A DNA stretch of 49,677 nucleotides from Chitinophagaceae bacterium (lineage in GTDB: Bacteria; Bacteroidota; Bacteroidia; Chitinophagales; Chitinophagaceae): assembly GCA_036005825.1 (NCBI GenBank), contig DASYQG010000691.1, positions 1 through 49,677 on the forward strand. The letters run 5' to 3'. Both the position numbers and the translations under genes were made by a program. This document shows positions 30,349 through 38,966 of this stretch, piece by piece (positions within the stretch are counted from its first letter, which is position 1; the number at the start of each line of letters is the position of its first letter). Below the pieces are notes generated by a model. It was given only the letters and a program-made list of their open reading frames with translations. It was not told where the DNA came from and did no database searches.

Positions 30349-31359
30349 TCAATCAAGATTATGTTTCATTTCAGCGATCTGTGAACGGGTACCAAACACA
30401 ATTACTTTGCAGCCTTCAGTTACCAGCGTTTCACCAGGTGGATTAATAATAAATTTACCTTCCTTGTTTTTTATTCCTAAACAATTCACTCCTGTTTTAT
30501 TCCATTCCATTACTATTTTAAGTGATTTATCTTTTATCGCTGGAGGTAATTGGTTATAAGGAACGGATTCCATATTTACTGATTCACCATCTTCACTTGA
30601 AAGAAAATCCATGAACTCGATCACATCAGGTTTTGATACAAGAGTTGCCATATGAGAACCGCCGATCTTATCAGGCATAATAACATTATCAGCACCCGCC
30701 TTTCTAAGTTTTGGATAAGAACTTTCCTCCGATGCTCTACTGATGATTTGTAGTTTTTGATTCAGCGCTCTTGCAGAAAGAACGATAAAAACATTATCTG
30801 CATCCACCGGCAATGCAGTTATTAAAGCAACAGCTTTTTCAATACCGGCTTTTTTCAAAAGGTCATCATCAGTTCCATCACCAACCAAATAAACAAGTTC
30901 AGGAAAAAAGGGCAATGCTTTTTCCATTGATCCTTCTTCTTTCTCAATTACCACAAAAGGCATGTTATGATTTTTTAATGTCCTTGCTGCCTGTTGCCCG
31001 TTTCTTCCAAAACCGCAAAGAATAACATGGTTATTTAGTTGAGTAATTGCTTTCATATTCTTTCTCGTTTTAAAATATTTGTTGATCTCACCAGTAATAA
31101 CAAATTGCGTAATGCGTGCAATGGCCCAGGCAAAAGTGATCCAGCTTGTGATCAATAAAAAAATAGTAAACAAACGGCCTGAATCACTCAGCGGTCTTAC
31201 TTCGCTAAACCCGACAGTAGTAATGGCGATCGTGGTCATGTACAACGCTTCCATAAATGTATATCCTTCGATAGCCATATAACCAAAGATGCCAATGAGG
31301 ATAATAAAATGCAGAACAAGGAATGGTTGAAGAAGCCTGTATGTCCAGTGTCCCGGCAT
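30349..31359 (-). CDS. two-TM pore potassium-channel-family protein with RCK (TrkA-N/TrkA-C) domains
   Basis: Pore helix and filter region YMTTIAITTVGFSEV. Rossmann motif VILCGFGRNGQ. There is a C-terminal TrkA-C-like segment. Confidence 0.8.
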   Translation of the reverse strand: MPGHWTYRLLQPFLVLHFIILIGIFGYMAIEGYTFMEALYMTTIAITTVGFSEVRPLSDSGRLFTIFLLITSWITFAWAIARITQFVITGEINKYFKTRKNMKAITQLNNHVILCGFGRNGQQAARTLKNHNMPFVVIEKEEGSMEKALPFFPELVYLVGDGTDDDLLKKAGIEKAVALITALPVDADNVFIVLSARALNQKLQIISRASEESSYPKLRKAGADNVIMPDKIGGSHMATLVSKPDVIEFMDFLSSEDGESVNMESVPYNQLPPAIKDKSLKIVMEWNKTGVNCLGIKNKEGKFIINPPGETLVTEGCKVIVFGTRSQIAEMKHNLD

Positions 31360-31457
31360 TTTTTACTTTCTATAAAAGTAAATTAGTATTGTGGTTTTTA
31401 GAAATGAGTTTGCCCATATCTGTCCATGGTTTTTTTATGAAATTTTCCTTATCGAAA

Positions 31458-31511
31458 TAAAAAAGGGGTGGCTCGAAGACCACCCCCGCCGTTGGTTAAA
31501 ACCTTGTAGTC
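31458..31511 (-). terminator. conserved 3' flank + terminator, copy A (after 31512..33059)
   Basis: Stem ggggtgg (31465-31471), loop ctcgaaga, stem ccacccc (31480-31486). The A-run on plus is the T-run on minus. This is followed toward the gene by cgccgttggttaaaaccttgtagtc, which abuts the stop codon. Confidence 0.85.
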
Positions 31512-33059
31512 TTAACGCTTTTTAACTACTATTTTTTCCACTGTTTGTTCTCCCGTTTCTGTGTCAATAATTCGAATAGTATAAAAACCTGCCGTTAGAT
31601 TATCTATTTGAATATTATTATTAGCAATGCCTTTCCATTGTTTCATAACACGGCCATTCATATCCATAAGTGATACATCCCGGATAGTATTTACATCTGC
31701 AAACACCACATTTACTCTACCATCATTGCTTGGATTTGGATAAATAATGGTTTTCCCTTTTTGCCCACCTGCTCTTACTGCACGTATTGGACTAAAAGCT
31801 TGTTTGCCATCAATATCAATTTGCCGCAAACGATACTGAGATATTCCTTTTGCATTATTAAGATCTGAATATTCATAGTTGAGAAGAGAGCTACTATTGC
31901 CATTCATCGCTTTAGTTGGAACAAACCCCAGGTTTTGCCAAACATTATTGCCAAGATTTCTTTCAATATAAAATCCCCTGCTGTTTACTTCAGTTGCTGT
32001 TTCCCATCGCAAAAGAACAGTAGAATTATTCCGTGAAGCCGTAAATGATCGCAAAGTAACAGGCAATGTAGAACATAGCGCCTCTACTACCGGGGTAACT
32101 AAAGTATTTGAAAACTCTTGTCCTGTAACCTCAACAAATAGTCCCCATTGTGAAAATGGTTCAGTGCAGCAATATGGCGCAGGCAAATTAACAGCACCCG
32201 ATGAATATGGAGTGGAAGAATTCAATGTAATAGTTCCCGAAGTAAATAAAAGTGGATCGTCACCACCCGGTTCTCTTACACCGTCCAAATCATCAGCATA
32301 TACTTTATACACTACATGTATGTCTACAGGACTTGATGATGTAAGACCTACAGAGTATTGAAGAGTTGGGCCGCATAGCTTTTGAAGAGCAATTGTTGGA
32401 TCGCCAAAAGATTGTCCTACACCACAAACATAACATTGCGCTTTCGGATCAGGAGCATTTGAATTAGATCCCCAAACATCTGTTTTGATTATTACAGGAG
32501 TACCGCATGAAGTATTAAGAACTATGGTGATGTTAGTAATCTCAAAATGTAAAGTGTCAGAATTATCTCTTTTGGTTACTATTGCGGTCAATCCTGGAGA
32601 GTTAGAAGGTTGAGTTAGTGCAACACTTGGATCATGCGGAAAAACAGTTGCAATGAAAGCCGTAACATCTAATGGTACATCGGGAGTAAACACAAGATCA
32701 TTCAACCCTTTAAATCCAAAATCAAAAAAAGATTTTCCCGGCTCACCAACCTGGGTCCCTAATTGCAAACTTGTTCCCGGATCGACTGCAGGTGTGTTGC
32801 CGCCGCAATTAAATATGGGAGGATTAGGATAGTCCGCCAACAGCCATGAATGCACAAAAAGATATTTGAAACCCGAATTAGTTATAATGTCAAATGATGC
32901 ATTAAATGTGTATTGACATTGATTAGGACCTAACGGAACCGGCGGCTGTGAGCCTGAGGTTGCCAGGTTAGCAAACGCAATATCGCATTGTGCTTTAAGA
33001 GAATTAAAAGAAAACAGAGCTCCGCTAATTAGAAAAAGAAAGAGTAAAAACTTTTTCAT
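31512..33059 (-). CDS. secreted protein of unknown function, long-head member A of the four-gene family, with T9SS C-terminal sorting domain
   Basis: Signal peptide MKKFLLFLFLISGALFSFNSLKA. Head homologous to 36012..37622. Shared C-terminal module LPVTLRSFTASRNNSTVLLRWETA...IIYPNPSNDGRVNVVF...GFYTIRIIDTETGEQTVEKIVVKKR. Confidence 0.85.
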   Translation of the reverse strand: MKKFLLFLFLISGALFSFNSLKAQCDIAFANLATSGSQPPVPLGPNQCQYTFNASFDIITNSGFKYLFVHSWLLADYPNPPIFNCGGNTPAVDPGTSLQLGTQVGEPGKSFFDFGFKGLNDLVFTPDVPLDVTAFIATVFPHDPSVALTQPSNSPGLTAIVTKRDNSDTLHFEITNITIVLNTSCGTPVIIKTDVWGSNSNAPDPKAQCYVCGVGQSFGDPTIALQKLCGPTLQYSVGLTSSSPVDIHVVYKVYADDLDGVREPGGDDPLLFTSGTITLNSSTPYSSGAVNLPAPYCCTEPFSQWGLFVEVTGQEFSNTLVTPVVEALCSTLPVTLRSFTASRNNSTVLLRWETATEVNSRGFYIERNLGNNVWQNLGFVPTKAMNGNSSSLLNYEYSDLNNAKGISQYRLRQIDIDGKQAFSPIRAVRAGGQKGKTIIYPNPSNDGRVNVVFADVNTIRDVSLMDMNGRVMKQWKGIANNNIQIDNLTAGFYTIRIIDTETGEQTVEKIVVKKR

Positions 33060-33061
33060 GG

Positions 33062-33072
33062 TACAAGGTTTT
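33062..33072. repeat. 5' arm of the inverted motif (tacaaggtttt), 2 nt after the start codon complement of gene A
   Basis: The plus strand reads cat-gg-tacaaggtttt. It is the reverse complement of the aaaaccttgta motif next to the stop codon at 31498-31508. Confidence 0.7.
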
Positions 33073-33366
33073 AAATGAATAAATATGAATAATGGTTACA
33101 AGGGACATGGAAGACAGTCGCATAAGCATAAAAAGTAAACCGTCCAAATGCCGGATGTACAAAAACCTAACCACTATTTTATTTAGGGATTTTCACTATT
33201 TAAATAAGTCATTTTGTGATATCTAAACCTTGAGCTGTGGAGAAATGAGTAACGGTGATTTTAAAAATTGGGGAATATTTTAAACATACTTAAATGTTCA
33301 AGAAAAATAATACCGCTCAGTAAAAGTAAATTTACTGTTCGTTTTTGTTTCAGTATCCATCAATAG

Positions 33367-33417
33367 AAAAGGGGCGGCACGAAAACCGCCCCCGCCGTTG
33401 GTTAAAACCTTGAAGCT
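33367..33417 (-). terminator. conserved 3' flank + terminator, copy B (after 33418..34371)
   Basis: Stem ggggcgg (33371-33377), loop cacgaaaa, stem ccgcccc (33386-33392), then cgccgttggttaaaaccttgaagct abutting the stop. Confidence 0.85.
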
Positions 33418-34371
33418 TTAACGCTTGTTTACAACGAACTTTTGTACTTCCTGTTCGCCGGTTTCATTATTTATTATTCTTGCAGTGTATATACCTGCTG
33501 TAAGATTATTAACCACAATATTATTAGTAATTATCCCTTTCATTTGCTTGATAACGCGGCCACTCATATCGCTAACTGATACATCACGAATACCGTCCAC
33601 ATCATCAAAAACGATGGTGACTTTACCATCGCTGCTTGGGTTAGGATAAATAATGGACTTACTTTTTTGACCCTCGCCTCGTACTGCACGAATTTCACTG
33701 AATTTGGATCTCCTGTCAATGTCAATTTGTTTAATGCGGTATTGACTGATACCTTTCGTTTGATTCAGATCAGCATAAGTATAAGTAAGATCGGATGCGC
33801 TATTACCGCCGGTTGCCTGGCTTGCAATAAACGAAAGAGTTTGCCAGCTGCCGCTGCCGATCAATCGCTGAATTTCAAAACCAAGATTGTTGCTTTCTGT
33901 AGCCGTTGTCCATTTCAAAGCAACTACACTGTTGCTCCGTGAAGCGGTGAACGTGCCGAAGGCAACAGGAAGAGTTCCCTGCTCACCGCATGGAGTTCCA
34001 TTATAAGAAATAAGAAATCTAAAGAGTTCATTATGGCCCTGGAGATTATTATTTCTGTTTGGCCCTGCGTAGTAGCAATATTTTACATCTCCGTTATTTA
34101 GCAATGTTCCCGGACCAAAATTAATGTCTGTCAGTAATTGCTGATTAAGAGGATCAGTAATATCGAAAATGCTGATAATCGCGGGTATACTAAGCGGATC
34201 AATTAACCCATCAAATGATAAAGTTATAGTTCCCGTCGCAGAAGCTCCGTTTACATCCGGGCAGCTACCACCTCCGTTGTTAATTTTATAATCACCGACA
34301 CATGGTGTTTGGGAAGAAACAAGGCTTGCTATTGACACCATCACTAAAGATAAAAGTAGATTCTTTTTCAT
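33418..34371 (-). CDS. secreted protein of unknown function, short-head member B of the four-gene family, with T9SS C-terminal sorting domain
   Basis: Signal peptide. Head QTPCVGDYKINNGGGSCPDVNGASATGTITLSFDG.... The C-terminal ~190 aa are nearly identical to 34721..35674. Confidence 0.85.
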   Translation of the reverse strand: MKKNLLLSLVMVSIASLVSSQTPCVGDYKINNGGGSCPDVNGASATGTITLSFDGLIDPLSIPAIISIFDITDPLNQQLLTDINFGPGTLLNNGDVKYCYYAGPNRNNNLQGHNELFRFLISYNGTPCGEQGTLPVAFGTFTASRSNSVVALKWTTATESNNLGFEIQRLIGSGSWQTLSFIASQATGGNSASDLTYTYADLNQTKGISQYRIKQIDIDRRSKFSEIRAVRGEGQKSKSIIYPNPSSDGKVTIVFDDVDGIRDVSVSDMSGRVIKQMKGIITNNIVVNNLTAGIYTARIINNETGEQEVQKFVVNKR

Positions 34372-34384
34372 ACTACAAGGTTTT
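34372..34384. repeat. 5' arm of the inverted motif (actacaaggtttt), abutting the start codon of gene B
   Basis: The plus strand reads cat-actacaaggtttt. Confidence 0.7.
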
Positions 34385-34669
34385 ATGGTTTAAAAAATAA
34401 TTTCCGGTAATCAGAAATAAAGATTAAAAGCCTTGCTGATGATTAAATACAGATAAATTTCAAGTCAATGCCTTTTGGCTTTTCAGAAAAAATATTTGCC
34501 AGACATTGGAGCGGTGCCCATCATAGGTTATGCCTTCAGAAGTTACTAGTCAGAGATTTTGAGAATGAGAATACAAGTCCGGTATCTTCATAAGAGAATG
34601 GAGAGATGAAAATTTTGCATCTTCAAGTTACAAAAAAATAAAAGTGATAAAAAATATTTTATCCAAATA

Positions 34670-34720
34670 AAAAGGGGCGGCTCGAAGACCGCCCCCGCCG
34701 TTGGTTAAAACCTTGAAGCT
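34670..34720 (-). terminator. conserved 3' flank + terminator, copy C (after 34721..35674)
   Basis: Stem ggggcgg (34674-34680), loop ctcgaaga, stem ccgcccc (34689-34695), then cgccgttggttaaaaccttgaagct abutting the stop. Confidence 0.85.
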
Positions 34721-35674
34721 TTAACGCTTGTTTACAACGAACTTTTGTACTTCCTGTTCGCCGGTTTCATTATTTATTATTCTTGCAGTGTATATACCTG
34801 CCGTAAGATTATTAACCACAATATTATTAGTAATTATCCCTTTCATTTGCTTGATAACGCGGCCACTCATATCGCTAACTGATACATCACGAATACCGTC
34901 CACATCTTCAAAAACGATAGTGACTTTACCATCGCTGCTTGGGTTAGGATAAATAATGGACTTACTTTTTTGACCCTCGCCTCGTACTGCACGAATTTCA
35001 CTGAATTTGGATCTTCTGTCAATGTCAATTTGTTTAATGCGGTATTGACTGATACCTTTCGTTTGATTCAGATCAGAATAACTATAAGTAAGATCGGATG
35101 CGCTATTACCGCCGGTTGCCTGGCTTGCAATAAACGAAAGAGTTTGCCAGCTACCGCTGCCGATCAATCGCTGAATTTCAAAACCAAGATTGTTGCTTTC
35201 TGTAGCCGTTGTCCATTTCAAAGCAACTACGCTGTTGCTCCGTGAAGCGGTGAAGGTGCCGAAGGCAACAGGAAGAGCTCCCTGCTCAACACATAAAGCT
35301 CCACCAGCATAAGTAATAAGGAATCTGAACTTTGAATTATGTCCTGCAAGATTATTGTTATTAGCTGGCCCGACGTAGTAGCAAAATTTTACATCGCCGC
35401 TATTAAGCAATAATCCCGGACCATAGGTTATGTCCGTCACTAAAAACTGGTTAAGAGGATCAGTGATATCGAAAACACTGACAATTGTGGGTATATTGAG
35501 CGGATCAACAGGCCCATCGAATGTTAAGGTTATAGTGCCAGTCGCCGAAGTTCCGTTTACATCAGGGCAGCTACCACCACCATTGTTAATTTGGTAATCA
35601 AGAACACAAGGTGTTTGCGAAAAACCAATTACCGATGATACCATCAATAAAAATAAAAGTAGATTCTTTTTCAT
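34721..35674 (-). CDS. secreted protein of unknown function, short-head member C of the four-gene family, with T9SS C-terminal sorting domain
   Basis: Signal peptide. Head QTPCVLDYQINNGGGSCPDVNGTSATGTITLTFDG.... Shared C-terminal module and CTD. Confidence 0.85.
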   Translation of the reverse strand: MKKNLLLFLLMVSSVIGFSQTPCVLDYQINNGGGSCPDVNGTSATGTITLTFDGPVDPLNIPTIVSVFDITDPLNQFLVTDITYGPGLLLNSGDVKFCYYVGPANNNNLAGHNSKFRFLITYAGGALCVEQGALPVAFGTFTASRSNSVVALKWTTATESNNLGFEIQRLIGSGSWQTLSFIASQATGGNSASDLTYSYSDLNQTKGISQYRIKQIDIDRRSKFSEIRAVRGEGQKSKSIIYPNPSSDGKVTIVFEDVDGIRDVSVSDMSGRVIKQMKGIITNNIVVNNLTAGIYTARIINNETGEQEVQKFVVNKR

Positions 35675-35687
35675 GCTTCAAGGTTTT
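35675..35687. repeat. 5' arm of the inverted motif (gcttcaaggtttt), abutting the start codon of gene C
   Basis: The plus strand reads cat-gcttcaaggtttt. It is a perfect 13-nt reverse complement of aaaaccttgaagc at 34707-34719, next to the same gene's stop codon. Confidence 0.75.
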
Positions 35688-35961
35688 ATTAATTAATAAA
35701 AAGATTTACCAGGATCCAGATAAAAACATCCGGGCCGAAGAATAAATATTTTAATCTTTAGACAGCGCCGTTTGGCTTTTCAGGAAAAAGCTCTTGATAG
35801 GATCTTGAAGTCGCAGGATCACAGGTTACGATTAAAGAATTTACTGGTCAGAATGTTTGGCGGAGATAAAATCAATCCCGGGTTTCTCAATGGAGAGTAA
35901 AGTAGTGTAAATTATAGATTTAAGGTAGCAAAAATTTTAACTGATAAAAAAAATTATTTAA

Positions 35962-36011
35962 AAAAGGGGTGGCTCGAAGACCACCCCCGCCGTTGGTTAA
36001 AACCTTGAGCT
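35962..36011 (-). terminator. conserved 3' flank + terminator, copy D (after 36012..37622)
   Basis: Stem ggggtgg (35966-35972), loop ctcgaaga, stem ccacccc (35981-35987), then cgccgttggttaaaaccttgagct abutting the stop. Confidence 0.85.
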
Positions 36012-37622
36012 TTAACGCTTGTTTACAATGAATTTCTCTACTACCTGTTCCCCTGTTTCTACATTCACAATTCGTACAGTGTAAAATCCTGAATTGAGGT
36101 TATCAACCTGGATCGTGTTATTAGTAACTCCTTTCCATTGTTTTATTGTTTTTCCGCTTACATCCATCAAAGACACATCGCGAGGACTATCTGCATCTTC
36201 AAACACAATATTTACTTTGCCATCTCCACTTGGGTTAGGGTAAATAATTGTTTTGGCTTTTTGTCCCTCACCACGAACCGAGCGGATCAAACTGTAAGCA
36301 TTTTTTCCGTCAATATCAAATTGCCTGAGTCTGTATTGAGAAATTCCTTTTGCATTATTGAAATCACTAAACTCATAAGTAAGAGTTGAGGTGCTGTTAC
36401 CGTTAAGTGCTTTTGATTCAACAAAGTCAATATTTTGCCATGCTCCATTTGATAATTTGCGCTGAACATAGAACCCTTTGTTATTTTGTTCTTGCTCTGT
36501 TTCCCATTTTAAATCAACGTAAGAAGTGTTTTTGCGAACAGCATTGAATGATTTCAAATTTATCGGAAGTGTTTCGCAAGATTGATCTGCTGTCCTTGAT
36601 ATGGCATTGTCATAAAGACCAGGTACCGTTACATCTAGCCTAATTGATGCATAATTTGCCGCTCCACTCGCATAAAAAGCACTGTAAGTAGCATAGTCAA
36701 GCGTTATAGTTCCAGAAGAAAAACTAGAAGGAGGAACATCTGCAGAATTTGCACTTAGCATTACATCTCCTTCGTACACGAGGTACTCGTCAAATGGCGG
36801 CAATACGTCCACAAAATATACTTTGTAGTGATAGGTATATGCCGCAGATATCGCAGTACTGATTGAAAAAGAAAATTGACGAGGAGCGCCACATAAAGAA
36901 CTTAACGCCAAAGTTGGATCGTTAACTGATGTACTTTGACCACATATATAGCATTGAGCACCAATTTTAGATTTAGAAGGCTGACCGCCGCTTCCTTGAG
37001 CATTTGTTCCCCAAACATCCGTAATAACAGTAAGTGGTTGGCAAGGGCCTAATACTTCCACTACTATTCCGGTTATTATGAAATGCAAAGTATCGGTGGC
37101 AGTTCTTGTAATTGTGGCATTTGTTGCAGTATTTAAGGCAACCAATTGGCCATTATTATTGTCGTTGTTTGGATATTCCCCAGTCACCGCTATTTTATTG
37201 GTTACATCTACTGTCGTGTTAAGTGGAAACGTCACAGTATTTAGACCAATAAATCCCAAATCTAATATCGAGGCTCCTGCCTCAAAAATAGTGTCTCCCA
37301 ATTGTGTTACATTACCTGGAGAAATGTTAGGTGTGTGCCCACCAATAGGGGCATTGGGGTCACAATTGAATACATTTGGATAATTGCTTTGCAACCATGA
37401 GTGAAAAAACAAATATTTAAATCCTGAATTAGTCTTGATATCGAATTCAGCATTGAAAGTGACTCGGCATCTGACAGGGTCAGTTGCGCTTCCGGTTCCA
37501 ATTTGTTGGCCGGGCTGTGCGTCAATTTTCACATTACTAAGTCCAAGGTCACATTGCGCTTTTGCAGTGTTAACAATCGCAAAACTGCAGATTGTCAAGA
37601 AGAAAAGTAAAATCTTTTTCAT
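36012..37622 (-). CDS. secreted protein of unknown function, long-head member D of the four-gene family, with T9SS C-terminal sorting domain
   Basis: Signal peptide MKKILLFFLTICSFAIVNTAKA. Head KAQCDLGLSN...FNAEFDIKTNSGFKYLFFHSWLQSNYPNVFNC is homologous to member A. Shared module LPINLKSFNAVRKN...IIYPNPSGDGKVNIVF...GFYTVRIVNVETGEQVVEKFIVNKR. Confidence 0.85.
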   Translation of the reverse strand: MKKILLFFLTICSFAIVNTAKAQCDLGLSNVKIDAQPGQQIGTGSATDPVRCRVTFNAEFDIKTNSGFKYLFFHSWLQSNYPNVFNCDPNAPIGGHTPNISPGNVTQLGDTIFEAGASILDLGFIGLNTVTFPLNTTVDVTNKIAVTGEYPNNDNNNGQLVALNTATNATITRTATDTLHFIITGIVVEVLGPCQPLTVITDVWGTNAQGSGGQPSKSKIGAQCYICGQSTSVNDPTLALSSLCGAPRQFSFSISTAISAAYTYHYKVYFVDVLPPFDEYLVYEGDVMLSANSADVPPSSFSSGTITLDYATYSAFYASGAANYASIRLDVTVPGLYDNAISRTADQSCETLPINLKSFNAVRKNTSYVDLKWETEQEQNNKGFYVQRKLSNGAWQNIDFVESKALNGNSTSTLTYEFSDFNNAKGISQYRLRQFDIDGKNAYSLIRSVRGEGQKAKTIIYPNPSGDGKVNIVFEDADSPRDVSLMDVSGKTIKQWKGVTNNTIQVDNLNSGFYTVRIVNVETGEQVVEKFIVNKR

Positions 37623-37635
37623 GCTTCAAGGTTTT
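37623..37635. repeat. 5' arm of the inverted motif (gcttcaaggtttt), abutting the start codon of gene D
   Basis: The plus strand reads cat-gcttcaaggtttt. Confidence 0.7.
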
Positions 37636-38282
37636 TTGTCCCAATGTATCGGGACGATTTTAATAAATAGTTTTTACAGTTAACGAATACTACCCTTCGG
37701 CTTTATTTTTCGGGGTAGTGTATATGATGATTTAATTCATCCACTTGTTAGTGGTGATTCATCAGGAGGTTGGAAACCTTGGCATTCAGAATAGGAAGGG
37801 ACTTATCATGCCTGCGGCAGACATGGGCTTGGGTTAGCTCAATAGATAATTGGGACTGATAGTTCAGAAGTATTGGAGAATTCTTTGTACTATAATGATC
37901 ATTGCAAAAAGCAACAAACATTGCAGCTACACAGTAGAGTTCAAACGAAATGGATTTTTTTAACCAACGGCTTTTTAGATAGGAGAGTGAAATTTCGGGA
38001 GGATCGATTTCTCAATCAGGATGCTAAAATAAAGCATAGATTTTAGAACTGCAAATAGATCGCGAAAATTTCTTTTATAAATTAAAAACTATTCTGTCGT
38101 TAAACCCCTACACCCCAGTGCTGGAAAGCCTGTTCAGTCCAAGACATACCACCTTATTCGCACTCAAATGCATGGTTAAAGCATATCAAAGACATGGCAA
38201 AAGCGTTCGAATTGGCATAATCACTACCCTCGCGTCCATCCTGACTAACCGAGAACTCATGCCCGTTTCTTGAAATAGCAGA

Positions 38283-38966
38283 TCAGGCACCAATGATTTT
38301 CTTTGCCAGCTTTTCCACCTTCTGAATGGTCTCCTTAGCAGTCAGGTTGGTATTATCCACTAAGATCGCATCATCAGCTTTTCGCAGAGGACTTTCTTCG
38401 CGGTTACTGTCAATATAATCCCGCATTTCAAGATTTGCTTTTATTTCTTCGATCGTAACGTTAGGATTTTTTTCAAACAGCTCTTTAAATCTTCTTTCCA
38501 CTCTCACCGCATTATCAGCTGTCAAAAAGATCTTTAATTCGGCTTTGGGAAAAACAACAGTACCAATATCACGGCCGTCCATTATCACCCCTTTCTTTTT
38601 GCCCATTAGTTGTTGTTGCTCGACTGCAAATTTTCTTACTTCTTTAATGGCAGCCACGTCACTTACTTTCTCCGCCACTACAAGGTCGCGGATCACATAT
38701 TCCACATTTTCGCCGTTCAAATGCATTTCGCTTTGCTGGCTTTTATCATTGTAAATAAATTCAAGTGAAATTTCTTTCAATGCGCTTTTTACTTCATTCT
38801 TATCTGTCCAGTCCACATGATTACGCAAAAAATAAAGTGTAATGGCACGGTACATAGCACCACTATCGACATACAGATAGCCTAATTCTTTTGCAAGCTC
38901 TTTGGCCAAAGTGCTTTTGCCACAGCTACTCCATCCATCAATTGCTATGATAATTTTTTTCGCCAT
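38283..38966 (-). CDS. cmk: (d)CMP kinase
   Basis: IIAIDGWSSCGKSTLAKELAKELGYLYVDSGAMYRA (P-loop and cytidylate kinase N-terminal signature). Also GRDIGTVVFP. Size is 227 aa. Confidence 0.9.
   Translation of the reverse strand: MAKKIIIAIDGWSSCGKSTLAKELAKELGYLYVDSGAMYRAITLYFLRNHVDWTDKNEVKSALKEISLEFIYNDKSQQSEMHLNGENVEYVIRDLVVAEKVSDVAAIKEVRKFAVEQQQLMGKKKGVIMDGRDIGTVVFPKAELKIFLTADNAVRVERRFKELFEKNPNVTIEEIKANLEMRDYIDSNREESPLRKADDAILVDNTNLTAKETIQKVEKLAKKIIGA

What the first reader, a model, noticed from the sequence alone, without database searches (positions are those of the whole stretch)
31498..37635. Every family member is bracketed by a 9-13 nt inverted motif that abuts both its start codon and its stop codon
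Seen, in gene sense: each gene begins ...AAAACCTTG(A/T)A(G/C)(C/T)-ATG and ends TAA-(A)G(C/A)(T)(T)(C/A)CAAGGTTTT. Plus-strand coordinates of the 3' arms are 31498-31508, 33404-33416, 34707-34719 and 35999-36010. The 5' arms are 33062-33072, 34372-34384, 35675-35687 and 37623-37635. The core CAAGGTTTT/AAAACCTTG is invariant in all eight positions. For gene C the two arms are a perfect 13-nt reverse complement (aaaaccttgaagc / gcttcaaggtttt). The 5' arm of B (actacaaggtttt) matches the 3' arm of A (gactacaaggtttt). Because the genes are tandem, the same arms also bracket each ~320 nt spacer, which holds the terminator and the presumed promoter. Degenerate extra copies lie at 33224-33234 (aaaccttgagc) and 37774-37783 (gaaaccttgg). 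Three hypotheses, all inference. (1) In read-through transcripts the 3' arm of the upstream gene pairs with the start region of the next gene and masks its ATG. Only transcripts from the gene's own promoter would then be translated. (2) The arms are recombination or gene-conversion boundaries for cassette exchange between paralogs. (3) The spacers are invertible promoter segments (phase variation), although no recombinase gene is present in this window.
Basis: partly seen in the sequence, partly recalled or inferred. Interest (0 to 1): 0.65.

Follow-up and report, generated by a model that had tools for sequence, protein, structure and literature searches.

The report
Complementary start/stop flanks of secreted-protein genes
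Four tandem secreted-protein genes of an uncultured soil Chitinophagaceae bacterium each carry a short sequence over their ribosome-loading site and its exact reverse complement just after their stop codon; this pair is kept across the genus and most likely lets the RNA mask its own translation start, which has not yet been shown.

Summary
AAAACCTTG occurs exactly 8 times in the window (0.9 expected). Every copy lies 4 nt before an ATG or 3-5 nt after a TAA of four minus-strand T9SS-cargo paralogs.

It is not a generic start context. Only the AAAA part matches this genome's A-rich signal at -13..-10.

The 3' arm is part of a longer element: CGT-TAA, the arm, AACCAACGGC, then an intrinsic terminator whose stem covaries. 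Its 24-nt core is letter-perfect in 16 of 21 genus genomes, although the proteins are only 47-59% identical.

Both arms recur in further metagenomic clades where the rest of the 3' element differs.

Folding naked RNA pairs the two arms in all four mRNAs (P 0.8-1.0). It also pairs them in all three hypothetical read-through spacers.

The first gene has a roughly 450-nt conserved leader. It carries its own anti-start segment (AAUGCCAAGGUUUC) and an inverted half of the 3' element.

Best reading (about 0.45): the arms are an RNA-level pair, start region and anti-start sequence, comparable to icaR or hbs 5'/3'-UTR pairing.

Against this, there is no covariation beyond shared conservation, a local stop-codon hairpin competes for the 3' arm, and the last gene often loses its 5' arm.

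Invertible spacers are not supported. Recombination at the arms did happen once, probably as a by-product.

The scan has not noted this element on other DNA.

The parts
31512..33059 (-). gene A (515 aa), last member of the array; T9SS cargo with C-terminal sorting domain
33418..34371 (-). gene B (317 aa); C-like coding sequence sitting in the slot (upstream spacer and 5' arm) of the 515-aa 'Bp' paralog type of related species
34721..35674 (-). gene C (317 aa)
36012..37622 (-). gene D (536 aa), first member of the array
33062..33072 (-). 5' arm of A (AAAACCTTGTA, then CC-ATG); covers positions -13..-5 of the translation initiation region
34372..34384 (-). 5' arm of B (AAAACCTTGTAGT-ATG)
35675..35687 (-). 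5' arm of C (AAAACCTTGAAGC-ATG)
37623..37635 (-). 5' arm of D (AAAACCTTGAAGC-ATG)
31460..31517 (-). 3' element of A: CGT-TAA, 3' arm (31498-31508), AACCAACGGC linker, terminator hairpin and U-tract
33367..33423 (-). 3' element of B (3' arm 33404-33416)
34669..34726 (-). 3' element of C (3' arm 34707-34719)
35960..36017 (-). 3' element of D (3' arm 35999-36010)
37638..37655 (-). hairpin immediately upstream of D's 5' arm; its stem covaries among species
37773..37786 (-). anti-start segment inside the D leader (gene sense AATGCCAAGGTTTC), predicted to pair with AAACCUUGAAGCAU including the AU of the start codon
37958..37971 (+). inverted half of the 3' element (TTTTAACCAACGGC on the + strand; GCCGTTGGTTAAAA in gene sense), about 340 nt upstream of D's ATG and conserved in the genus
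37623..38080 (-). roughly 450-nt conserved non-coding leader region of D; the upstream boundary is approximate

Best explanation
The two arms are a start-region / anti-start pair that acts in RNA.

The 5' arm AAAACCUUG lies at -13..-5 of the start codon. Ribosomes of Bacteroidota do not use Shine-Dalgarno sequences and need an open, A-rich stretch there. The 3' arm CAAGGUUUU, placed 3-5 nt after the stop codon, is its complement. When the two pair, the start region is closed and translation initiation is blocked, or the mRNA ends are clamped and its decay is altered.

Because the 3' arm lies within the footprint of a ribosome sitting on the stop codon, a terminating ribosome would melt the helix. 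This would couple opening of a start region to ongoing translation.

The first gene, which has no upstream paralog, carries an equivalent anti-start segment inside its long leader.

Shown here: the sequences, their conservation, their specificity to this family, and the predicted pairing. Inferred: that the pairing forms in the cell, which partner is used, and what it does to expression.
For: Position and specificity.
- There are eight exact copies, only at the gene ends.
- No other gene in the genome has both arms.
- The four genes are among the top roughly 15 of 3,437 crude gene calls for complementarity between 5' and 3' flanks.
- The arm is the information peak of the upstream region, at -13..-5. 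It overlies the genome's A-rich initiation signal.

Conservation.
- The 24-nt 3' core is exact in 16/21 genus genomes, while the proteins are 47-59% identical.
- The 5' arm is kept in most orthologs.
- Both arms persist in metagenomic clades in which the rest of the 3' element is replaced. Distant paralogs lack both.

Changes that keep RNA pairing.
- The 3' variant CAGGG (A to G) faces an unchanged U.
- The 5' variants AAAAUCUUG and AAAAUUUUG (C to U) face G.

Folding.
- Full-length naked mRNAs pair the arms in the minimum-energy structure, with P 0.8-1.0 per base pair in all four genes.
- The read-through spacers do the same.

First-gene leader.
- RNAalifold pairs AUGCCAAGGUUU with AAACCUUGAAGCAU.
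- That segment is the best complement of the start region in about 14 of 19 canonical first genes. In another clade an extra A in the start region (GCAAUG) goes with an extra U in the leader (AAUUGCC).

Second example. An unrelated OmpA-like gene of the same genome has a 15-nt 5'UTR/3'UTR complement between its stop codon and its terminator. About 9 of 16 genus members show complementarity there.

Precedents are icaR (PMC3868564) and hbs (PMC5737220).
Against: - There is no covariation proof. Among genes that have a 3' arm, cognate 5'/3' duplexes are not more stable than permuted ones (-14.0 vs -13.8 kcal/mol, about 15% of permutations reach it). The cores are nearly invariant, so the test has little power.
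- The last gene of the array often has a decayed 5' arm (AAACTAG, AAATTTAG, AAACATTG and others) while its 3' element stays intact. The 3' element therefore has a role that does not need the gene's own 5' arm.
- The 3' arm can also form a local 9-bp hairpin with the stop codon, at -6.6 to -7.5 kcal/mol. This is the minimum-energy fold of the isolated 3' region in nearly all copies, and it would form first during transcription.
- Equilibrium folding of naked RNAs of 1-1.7 kb ignores ribosomes and folding kinetics.
- No transcript ends or read data could be examined, so it is not shown that the 5' arm is transcribed in genes A-C.
Confidence: 0.45

Rival explanations
1. The 3' arm is only one strand and the loop of a local stop-codon hairpin. 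This hairpin belongs to a two-hairpin 3'-end module that serves stability and termination. The 5' arm is an independent family-specific initiation context. On this reading the complementarity is a leftover of how the family arose and has no function.
For: - The hairpin GUUAAAGCU-(U)CAA-GGUUUUAAC is the minimum-energy fold of 54 distinct 3' regions. 92.9% of its cells pair, and all stem variants are A/G changes opposite U or similar.
- The synonymous position of the last codon is fixed: CGT in 40/40 genes.
- The 3' element is retained where the 5' arm has decayed, and also after loss of the gene.
Against: - The hairpin's pairing is not above shuffled controls (76/500 shuffles reach it; one compensatory cell).
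- Two independently constrained motifs being 9-14 nt exact reverse complements is very unlikely by chance.
- The loop CAA is invariant in genes D, C and Bp. A structural hairpin alone does not require that.
- The clade with CAGGG lacks the hairpin but keeps complementarity to the start region.
Confidence: 0.2
2. The motifs are DNA sites for an unidentified regulator. AAAACCTTG would be an operator next to each start, with a second copy about 320 bp upstream that allows looping of each control region. AACCAACGGC would be a further site about 320-350 bp upstream of every gene, in either orientation.
For: - The same 9-bp site flanks each roughly 320-bp spacer.
- AACCAACGGC lies 315-380 nt upstream of all four ATGs. 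For the first gene it is inverted, which a DNA-binding protein tolerates but an RNA-binding protein does not.
Against: - No regulator gene is adjacent.
- The complementarity extends asymmetrically to 13-14 nt.
- The tolerated variants are those that preserve G.U pairs.
- The last gene's 3' site has no family gene to control.
- The arms track the start and stop codons rather than any promoter.
Confidence: 0.12
3. The arms exist as homology patches that let paralogs exchange whole coding cassettes by recombination or gene conversion.
For: - Gene B has the upstream spacer and 5' arm of the 'Bp' type (76-92% identity to the spacer in a related species). From the ATG onward it is C-like.
- B and C are 96-100% identical from mid-gene through the terminator.
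Against: - The recent conversion tract starts in mid-gene, not at an arm.
- Direct rather than inverted repeats would serve exchange between tandem copies.
- Exchange within a genome cannot explain identity of the element across 16 species whose coding sequences have diverged to about 50%.
Confidence: 0.08
4. Each spacer is an invertible promoter segment flanked by the inverted arms (phase variation; first reader's hypothesis 3).
For: Inverted 9-14-bp repeats flank each roughly 320-bp spacer.
Against: - All cross-species spacer homology is in one orientation: 838 matches against 1 marginal inverted match.
- The arms overlap the start context and the stop-codon hairpin, both of which an inversion would destroy.
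- No promoter box was found inside the spacers.
- None of the neighbouring genes I annotated is a recombinase.
Confidence: 0.02

Closest known systems
icaR mRNA of Staphylococcus aureus (5'-UTR/3'-UTR pairing; PMC3868564)
   Same: A short 3'-UTR motif is complementary to the ribosome-loading region of the same mRNA. Pairing is proposed to block initiation.
   Different: In icaR the target is a Shine-Dalgarno sequence and the effect was shown with compensatory mutants and RNase III. Here the target is the A-rich, SD-less start region of a Bacteroidota mRNA. The motif abuts the stop codon, it is shared by a whole tandem family, and nothing has been tested experimentally.
hbs mRNA of Bacillus subtilis (5'/3'-UTR interaction that protects against RNase Y; PMC5737220)
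   Same: Pairing of the mRNA ends next to the terminator, linked to translation and stability. This may also fit the OmpA-like gene seen in passing.
   Different: In hbs the pairing protects a cleavage site in a structured 5' UTR rather than covering the start region. It is a single gene, not a paralog family.
Long-distance translational coupling by RNA structure (polycistronic mRNAs and RNA phages; from my own knowledge, not checked in a paper here)
   Same: A distant complementary sequence masks a start region, and a ribosome translating or terminating over that sequence opens it. The 3' arm lies within reach of a ribosome at the stop codon.
   Different: Here an intrinsic terminator and about 320 nt lie between the partners. 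Co-transcription of the genes is not shown.
3'-UTR-derived small RNAs (seed upstream of the mRNA's own terminator; from my own knowledge)
   Same: An invariant stretch of about 19 nt directly precedes a terminator hairpin. Complementary sites lie in start regions and in the leader of the first gene.
   Different: No evidence of a separate short RNA. No targets outside the locus. In the full-length RNA the seed would be partly held in the local hairpin.
Invertible promoters (invertons) of Bacteroidota
   Same: Inverted repeats flank a short intergenic segment upstream of surface-protein genes.
   Different: Only one orientation is seen in about 16 species. There is no recombinase among the annotated neighbours, and the repeats coincide with the start and stop contexts.

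Membership tests
5'-UTR/3'-UTR pairing that controls translation (icaR type) | 3'-UTR segment complementary to the ribosome-loading region of the same mRNA | tested here: met
   9-14 nt of exact complementarity cover -13..-5. The pairing is predicted with P 0.8-1.0 in full-length RNA.
5'-UTR/3'-UTR pairing that controls translation (icaR type) | Pairing maintained in evolution by compensating changes | tested here: inconclusive
   Only wobble-compatible variants and register shifts were seen. Cognate versus permuted duplex energies are not significant among arm-bearing genes.
5'-UTR/3'-UTR pairing that controls translation (icaR type) | Both arms lie inside the transcript, and arm mutations change translation or decay | not testable with these tools
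All members are uncultured MAGs.
Intrinsic (factor-independent) terminator | G+C-rich stem followed by a U-tract, with the stem kept by compensating changes | tested here: met
   Stem variants CGG/CCG, TGG/CCA, CAG/CTG and TGA/TCA all pair, and a T-run follows.
Invertible promoter (inverton) | Both orientations of the segment occur | tested here: not met
   838 same-orientation matches against 1 marginal inverted match among 29 spacers of about 16 species. Reads were not available.
Invertible promoter (inverton) | Site-specific recombinase nearby and a promoter inside the segment | tested here: not met
   The annotated neighbours are cytidylate kinase, prolyl oligopeptidase, a K+ channel, an FKBP isomerase and an exonuclease. 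There is no TAnnTTTG box in the spacers. The rest of the window was not scanned for recombinases.
Integron attC site | RYYYAAC ... GTTRRRY polarity of the paired core sites | tested here: not met
   Read from the sequence: the hairpin reads GTTAAAG ... TTTTAAC on both strands, which is the opposite polarity, and both cores miss the consensus at one position. All 'cassettes' are one gene family.
Rfam RNA families | Match to a curated covariance model | tested here: not met
   There is no relevant hit at E <= 1 over 31000-38500 on either strand.
Generic translation-initiation context of the genome | Motif common before start codons of unrelated genes | tested here: not met
   AAAA at -13..-10 is generic, but CCTTG is not enriched near starts (14 near vs 24 far). 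ACCTTG occurs 8 times near starts, 4 of them in this family.

The most novel reading that the evidence does not exclude
The locus may be a self-contained RNA circuit. The invariant stretch CAAGGUUUUAACCAACGGC in front of each terminator would act as one seed, either as part of the mRNA or as a released 3'-UTR fragment. This seed would pair with the SD-less start regions of all paralogs. It would also pair with the two halves of a split, collinear complement in the 450-nt leader of the first gene (GCCGUUGGUUAAAA ... 335 nt ... AAAACCUUGAAGC-AUG). The result would be cross-paralog translational control of a T9SS cargo family. To my knowledge no 5'/3'-UTR or 3'-UTR-RNA regulon of this kind has been described in Bacteroidota.
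Probability: 0.2. Interest if true: 0.75.

Novelty: new variant of a known kind. Interest (0 to 1): 0.55.

Why it matters
Bacteroidota do not use Shine-Dalgarno pairing, and little is known about how individual mRNAs are switched on or off at initiation in this phylum.

A family-specific anti-start sequence placed at the stop codon and kept letter-perfect across a genus would be a compact, testable example of structure-based translational control in these organisms. It could couple termination to initiation. It concerns surface or secreted T9SS cargo that comes in exchangeable paralogs.

A second, unrelated envelope-protein gene in the same genome shows the same layout. This hints that pairing of mRNA ends may be used more widely in this lineage.

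If it turns out to be only a structural 3' end, the finding is still a clean case of a 3' UTR conserved far better than its coding sequence.

Tried and rejected
- Generic start context: rejected. Genome-wide counts and position-specific composition do not support it.
- Known RNA family: none found.
- Invertible spacer: rejected on orientation across species.
- Integron attC or mobile-element ends: rejected. The polarity is wrong, all 'cassettes' are one gene family, and the 24-mer occurs only in these arrays.
- Read-through coding of the 3' element: rejected. A 1-nt indel between copies shifts the frame.
- Pseudogene origin of the inverted 14-mer in the leader: no protein-level remnant, all E > 0.2.
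- Other targets of the 3' element in the genome: none beyond chance.
- Complement of clade-specific 3' sequences in the leaders of other clades: not found, but most metagenome contigs lack the leader.
- 5' arm as a -7 promoter box: two mismatches to TAnnTTTG, and it would put the transcript start inside the ATG. Rejected by reading the sequence.
- Pairing of the 5' arm with the 16S rRNA 3' region: only 6-7 nt, in a region not free to pair. This rests on my own knowledge and was not pursued.
- Covariation tests of both candidate helices gave no significant signal.

Full report
WHAT IS THERE

The stretch holds four tandem minus-strand genes: A 31512-33059, B 33418-34371, C 34721-35674 and D 36012-37622. 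All four end in a T9SS C-terminal sorting domain (PF18962, E about 1e-10). The neighbouring genes are housekeeping genes: cytidylate kinase, prolyl oligopeptidase, a K+ channel, an FKBP isomerase and an exonuclease.

The genome is a fragmented MAG: 706 contigs, 4.6 Mb, 37.6% G+C, 82% complete. Its relatives are uncultured soil Chitinophagaceae.

- AAAACCTTG occurs exactly eight times in the window, against 0.91 expected from shuffles.
- Four copies lie 4 nt before the four ATGs. Four lie as reverse complements 3-5 nt after the four TAAs.
- Complementarity between a gene's own flanks reaches 14 nt (C), 13 nt (A) and 10 nt (B and D).
- In a scan of 3,437 crude gene calls, cognate flank complementarity equals that of shuffled pairs except for a small tail that contains these four genes.

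IT IS NOT A GENERIC START CONTEXT

- The genome has 96 copies against about 56 expected. Apart from the family, only a few precede an ATG.
- Start regions in this genome are A-rich at -13..-9. The AAAA of the arm falls exactly there, and AAAACC is enriched near starts (101 near vs 31 far). CCTTG is not enriched (14 vs 24).
- No other gene combines a 5' arm with a 3' arm.
The arm does sit on the part of the mRNA that matters for initiation in this phylum, where initiation is tuned by secondary structure and upstream A residues (PMC6847099).

THE 3' ARM IS PART OF A LARGER, EXTREMELY CONSERVED ELEMENT

In gene sense every copy reads:

CGT-TAA-(A/G)(G/A)CT(T/A)-CAAGGTTTTAACCAACGGCGGGGG-stem-loop-stem-TTTTT

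- The terminator stem varies with matching changes on both sides (CGG/CCG, TGG/CCA, CAG/CTG, TGA/TCA), so it is a real hairpin.
- The 24-mer CAAGGTTTTAACCAACGGCGGGGG is exact in 16 of 21 genomes of the genus, at 2-5 copies each, always behind a family gene.
- The proteins themselves are only 47-59% identical.
- In a scan of one genome per prokaryote species, the exact sequence occurs only in this group of MAGs.
- The constraint starts inside the coding sequence. The last codon is CGT in 40/40 genes, although CGT is only 24% of the other Arg codons in these genes. The stop is TAA in 40/40.
- A 1-nt indel between copies excludes a coding role for the element.
- Where the third gene has been deleted in five species, its 3' element survives as an orphan but carries more changes: 0, 1, 0, 3 and 3, against 39 of 45 attached copies with none. 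The sample is small and the species are related. It hints at a function tied to the gene.

THE 5' ARM IS CONSERVED TOO, BUT LESS EVENLY

- Across 90 distinct family genes, information content peaks at -13..-5 and is low on both sides.
- In the first, second and third gene types the arm is nearly invariant.
- In the last gene type (A) it is intact in one subclade. In another it has decayed in many different ways (AAACTAG, AAATTTAG, AAACATTG, AAATTTTG) while the 3' element stays intact.
- The only core variants of the 3' arm inside the genus (CATGG, CATG) are also in A-type genes.

WIDER SAMPLING

From 79 metagenome contigs I extracted 113 family genes. Several clades replace the AACCAACGGC-terminator part by unrelated sequence but keep CGTTAAAGCTCAAGGTTT(T)AAC at the 3' end and TTAAAACCTTGAAGC before the ATG. 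Distant paralogs lack both arms.

Variants seen:
- CUCAGGGUUUU, an A-to-G change opposite an unchanged U.
- AAAAUCUUG, a C-to-U change opposite G.
- A clade whose start region reads AACCUUGAGUU and which keeps 8-9 nt of complementarity to its 3' CUCAAGGUU.

These fit RNA pairing. They are few, they are transitions, and they are not independent.

A permutation test gives cognate duplexes -13.5 kcal/mol against -12.8 for permuted ones (0/200 permutations reach it) when arm-less paralogs are included. Among genes that have a 3' arm it gives only -14.0 against -13.8 (about 15% of permutations reach it). There is thus co-occurrence but no demonstrable co-evolution.

COMPETING AND SUPPORTING STRUCTURES

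- Folded alone, the 3' region forms a 9-bp hairpin, GUUAAAGCU-(U)CAA-GGUUUUAAC, in nearly all of 54 distinct copies. The stop codon is in the 5' strand. The '3' arm' is the loop plus the 3' strand. The terminator follows.
- 92.9% of the hairpin's cells pair, but this is not above shuffled controls (76/500).
- The hairpin is worth about -7 kcal/mol. The arm-arm duplex is worth -14 to -20 kcal/mol.
- In equilibrium folding of whole naked mRNAs (from -25 to the terminator), the arms pair with each other in the minimum-energy structure. The probability is 0.8-1.0 per base pair in all four genes, and the local hairpin falls to 0.08 or less.
- In hypothetical read-through RNAs from one stop codon to the next ATG, the upstream 3' arm pairs with the next 5' arm in all three spacers.
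- These are predictions for naked RNA at equilibrium and nothing more.

THE FIRST GENE ADDS TWO PIECES

Upstream of D lies a non-coding region of about 450 nt, conserved across the genus, with several hairpins. The hairpin that abuts the arm shows compensating changes. There is no Rfam match.

1. RNAalifold pairs a leader segment about 150 nt upstream, AUGCCAAGGUUU (window 37773-37786), with AAACCUUGAAGCAU. This covers the arm and the AU of the start codon. The segment is the best complement of the start region in about 14 of 19 canonical first genes. One variant is wobble-compatible. In another clade an extra A in the start region (GCAAUG) goes with an extra U in the leader (AAUUGCC). A few species have lost the AAGGUUU part.

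2. It is an inverted copy of the second half of the 3' element. It is conserved 315-380 nt upstream of the first gene in eight genomes, and the core GCCGTTGGTT is present in all ten leaders aligned.

Read in gene sense, the leader carries GCCGTTGGTTAAAA ... about 335 nt ... AAAACCTTGAAGC-ATG. This is the collinear complement of GCTTCAAGGTTTTAACCAACGGC, split in two. There is no protein-level remnant of a family gene there. No other copy of that complement exists in the genome beyond chance. I cannot explain this arrangement with confidence. RNA pairing between the leader and 3' elements, or a DNA site used in both orientations, would both fit.

PROMOTERS

TAnnTTTG, the Bacteroidota -7 box, is clearly enriched 0-30 nt upstream of ATGs in this genome. 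None is present in the three spacers. The only conserved one-mismatch box lies about 320 nt upstream of D, next to the inverted half-site. The downstream genes may therefore depend on read-through or on another sigma factor. This is open.

Inversion. Among 29 spacers from about 16 species, all cross-species similarity is in the same orientation: 838 matches against one marginal inverted match. Inversion would also destroy the start context.

Recombination.
- B is a recombinant. Its upstream spacer and 5' arm are those of the 515-aa third-gene type of related species (76-92% identity).
- From the ATG onward it is C-like, at about 80% identity.
- From mid-gene through the terminator B and C are 96-100% identical.
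- The conserved flanks have therefore served as junctions at least once.
- This does not explain conservation across species, and the recent tract does not start at an arm.

A SECOND GENE WITH THE SAME LAYOUT

An energy-based scan of all genes finds 22 cognate flank pairs at or below -18 kcal/mol, against 6 for shuffled pairs. Besides the family, the scans single out one unrelated gene.

An OmpA-like outer-membrane protein gene on another contig has 15 nt of its 5' UTR (-25..-11) exactly complementary to the 3' UTR between its stop codon and its terminator. About 9 of 16 genus orthologs show 9-16 nt of complementarity there, at shifting positions. Pairing of mRNA ends may thus be used more than once in this lineage.

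VERDICT

- The most economical reading is an RNA-level start-region / anti-start pair. The terminating ribosome is a plausible opener.
- The partner (own 3' UTR, upstream 3' UTR, or a 3'-UTR fragment acting in trans) is unresolved.
- The 3' element clearly has an additional role independent of the gene's own 5' arm.
- Nothing here is experimental.
- I rate it a new variant of a known kind (5'/3'-UTR pairing), of moderate to good interest.

Noticed in passing
window 37623-38080 (minus strand): A non-coding region of about 450 nt upstream of gene D is highly conserved across the genus. It has several hairpins, some with compensating changes, and no Rfam match. It looks like a long structured leader or a separate RNA. 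In one relative (L041) a module of about 70 nt that contains the anti-start segment is duplicated.
   Followed up: partly
window 37958-37971: This is an inverted 14-nt copy of the second half of the family's 3' element. It is conserved about 315-380 nt upstream of the first gene in eight genomes. Together with the 5' arm it forms a split, collinear complement of the 3' element. A conserved one-mismatch -7-like box (TTCGTTTG) follows it.
   Followed up: partly
own genome, contig C475 (locus L170); orthologs L171-L184: An OmpA-like outer-membrane protein gene has 15 nt of its 5' UTR (TTTATCAAAAACTAA, -25..-11) exactly complementary to its 3' UTR between stop codon and terminator. About 9 of 16 genus orthologs keep 9-16 nt of such complementarity.
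   Followed up: partly
own genome, contigs C310, C54, C535, C249 and about 7 more: GTTAGCGGC ... GCCGCTAAC inverted pairs, 380-1270 bp apart, bracket small ORFs; the four inspected are mostly lipoprotein-like or hypothetical. There are 11 adjacent pairs against roughly 1-2 expected from the site density (my own rough estimate). Their nature is unknown (repeat element, cassette ends or RNA stems). One lone copy lies in the window at about 21723.
   Followed up: no
window 33367-35687: Gene B is a recombinant. It is a C-like coding sequence placed behind the spacer and 5' arm that in related species belong to a 515-aa paralog. A very recent conversion tract with C (96-100% identity) runs from mid-gene through the terminator.
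   Followed up: yes
loci L043, L047, L048, L049, L054 (genomes G001, G007, G004, G011, G010): These are orphan 3' elements with only a few C-terminal codons left where the third family gene has been deleted. They carry somewhat more mutations than gene-attached copies.
   Followed up: partly
window 33060-33417, 34372-34720, 35675-36011: None of the three inter-gene spacers contains the TAnnTTTG box, which is enriched 0-30 nt upstream of ATGs elsewhere in this genome. How genes C, B and A are transcribed is unclear.
   Followed up: partly
loci L137, L141, L143, L150 (metagenome contigs): Distant paralogs (N-terminus MKTPLR...) lack both arms. However, they have (A)AGGTTTT(T), a sequence like the 3' arm, directly before their ATG.
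   Followed up: no
own genome, contigs C256 and C593: Two small four-helix-bundle-type proteins, which look like 23S rRNA intervening-sequence proteins (recognised by eye, not tested), have strongly complementary 5' and 3' flanks (-27 and -23 kcal/mol).
   Followed up: no
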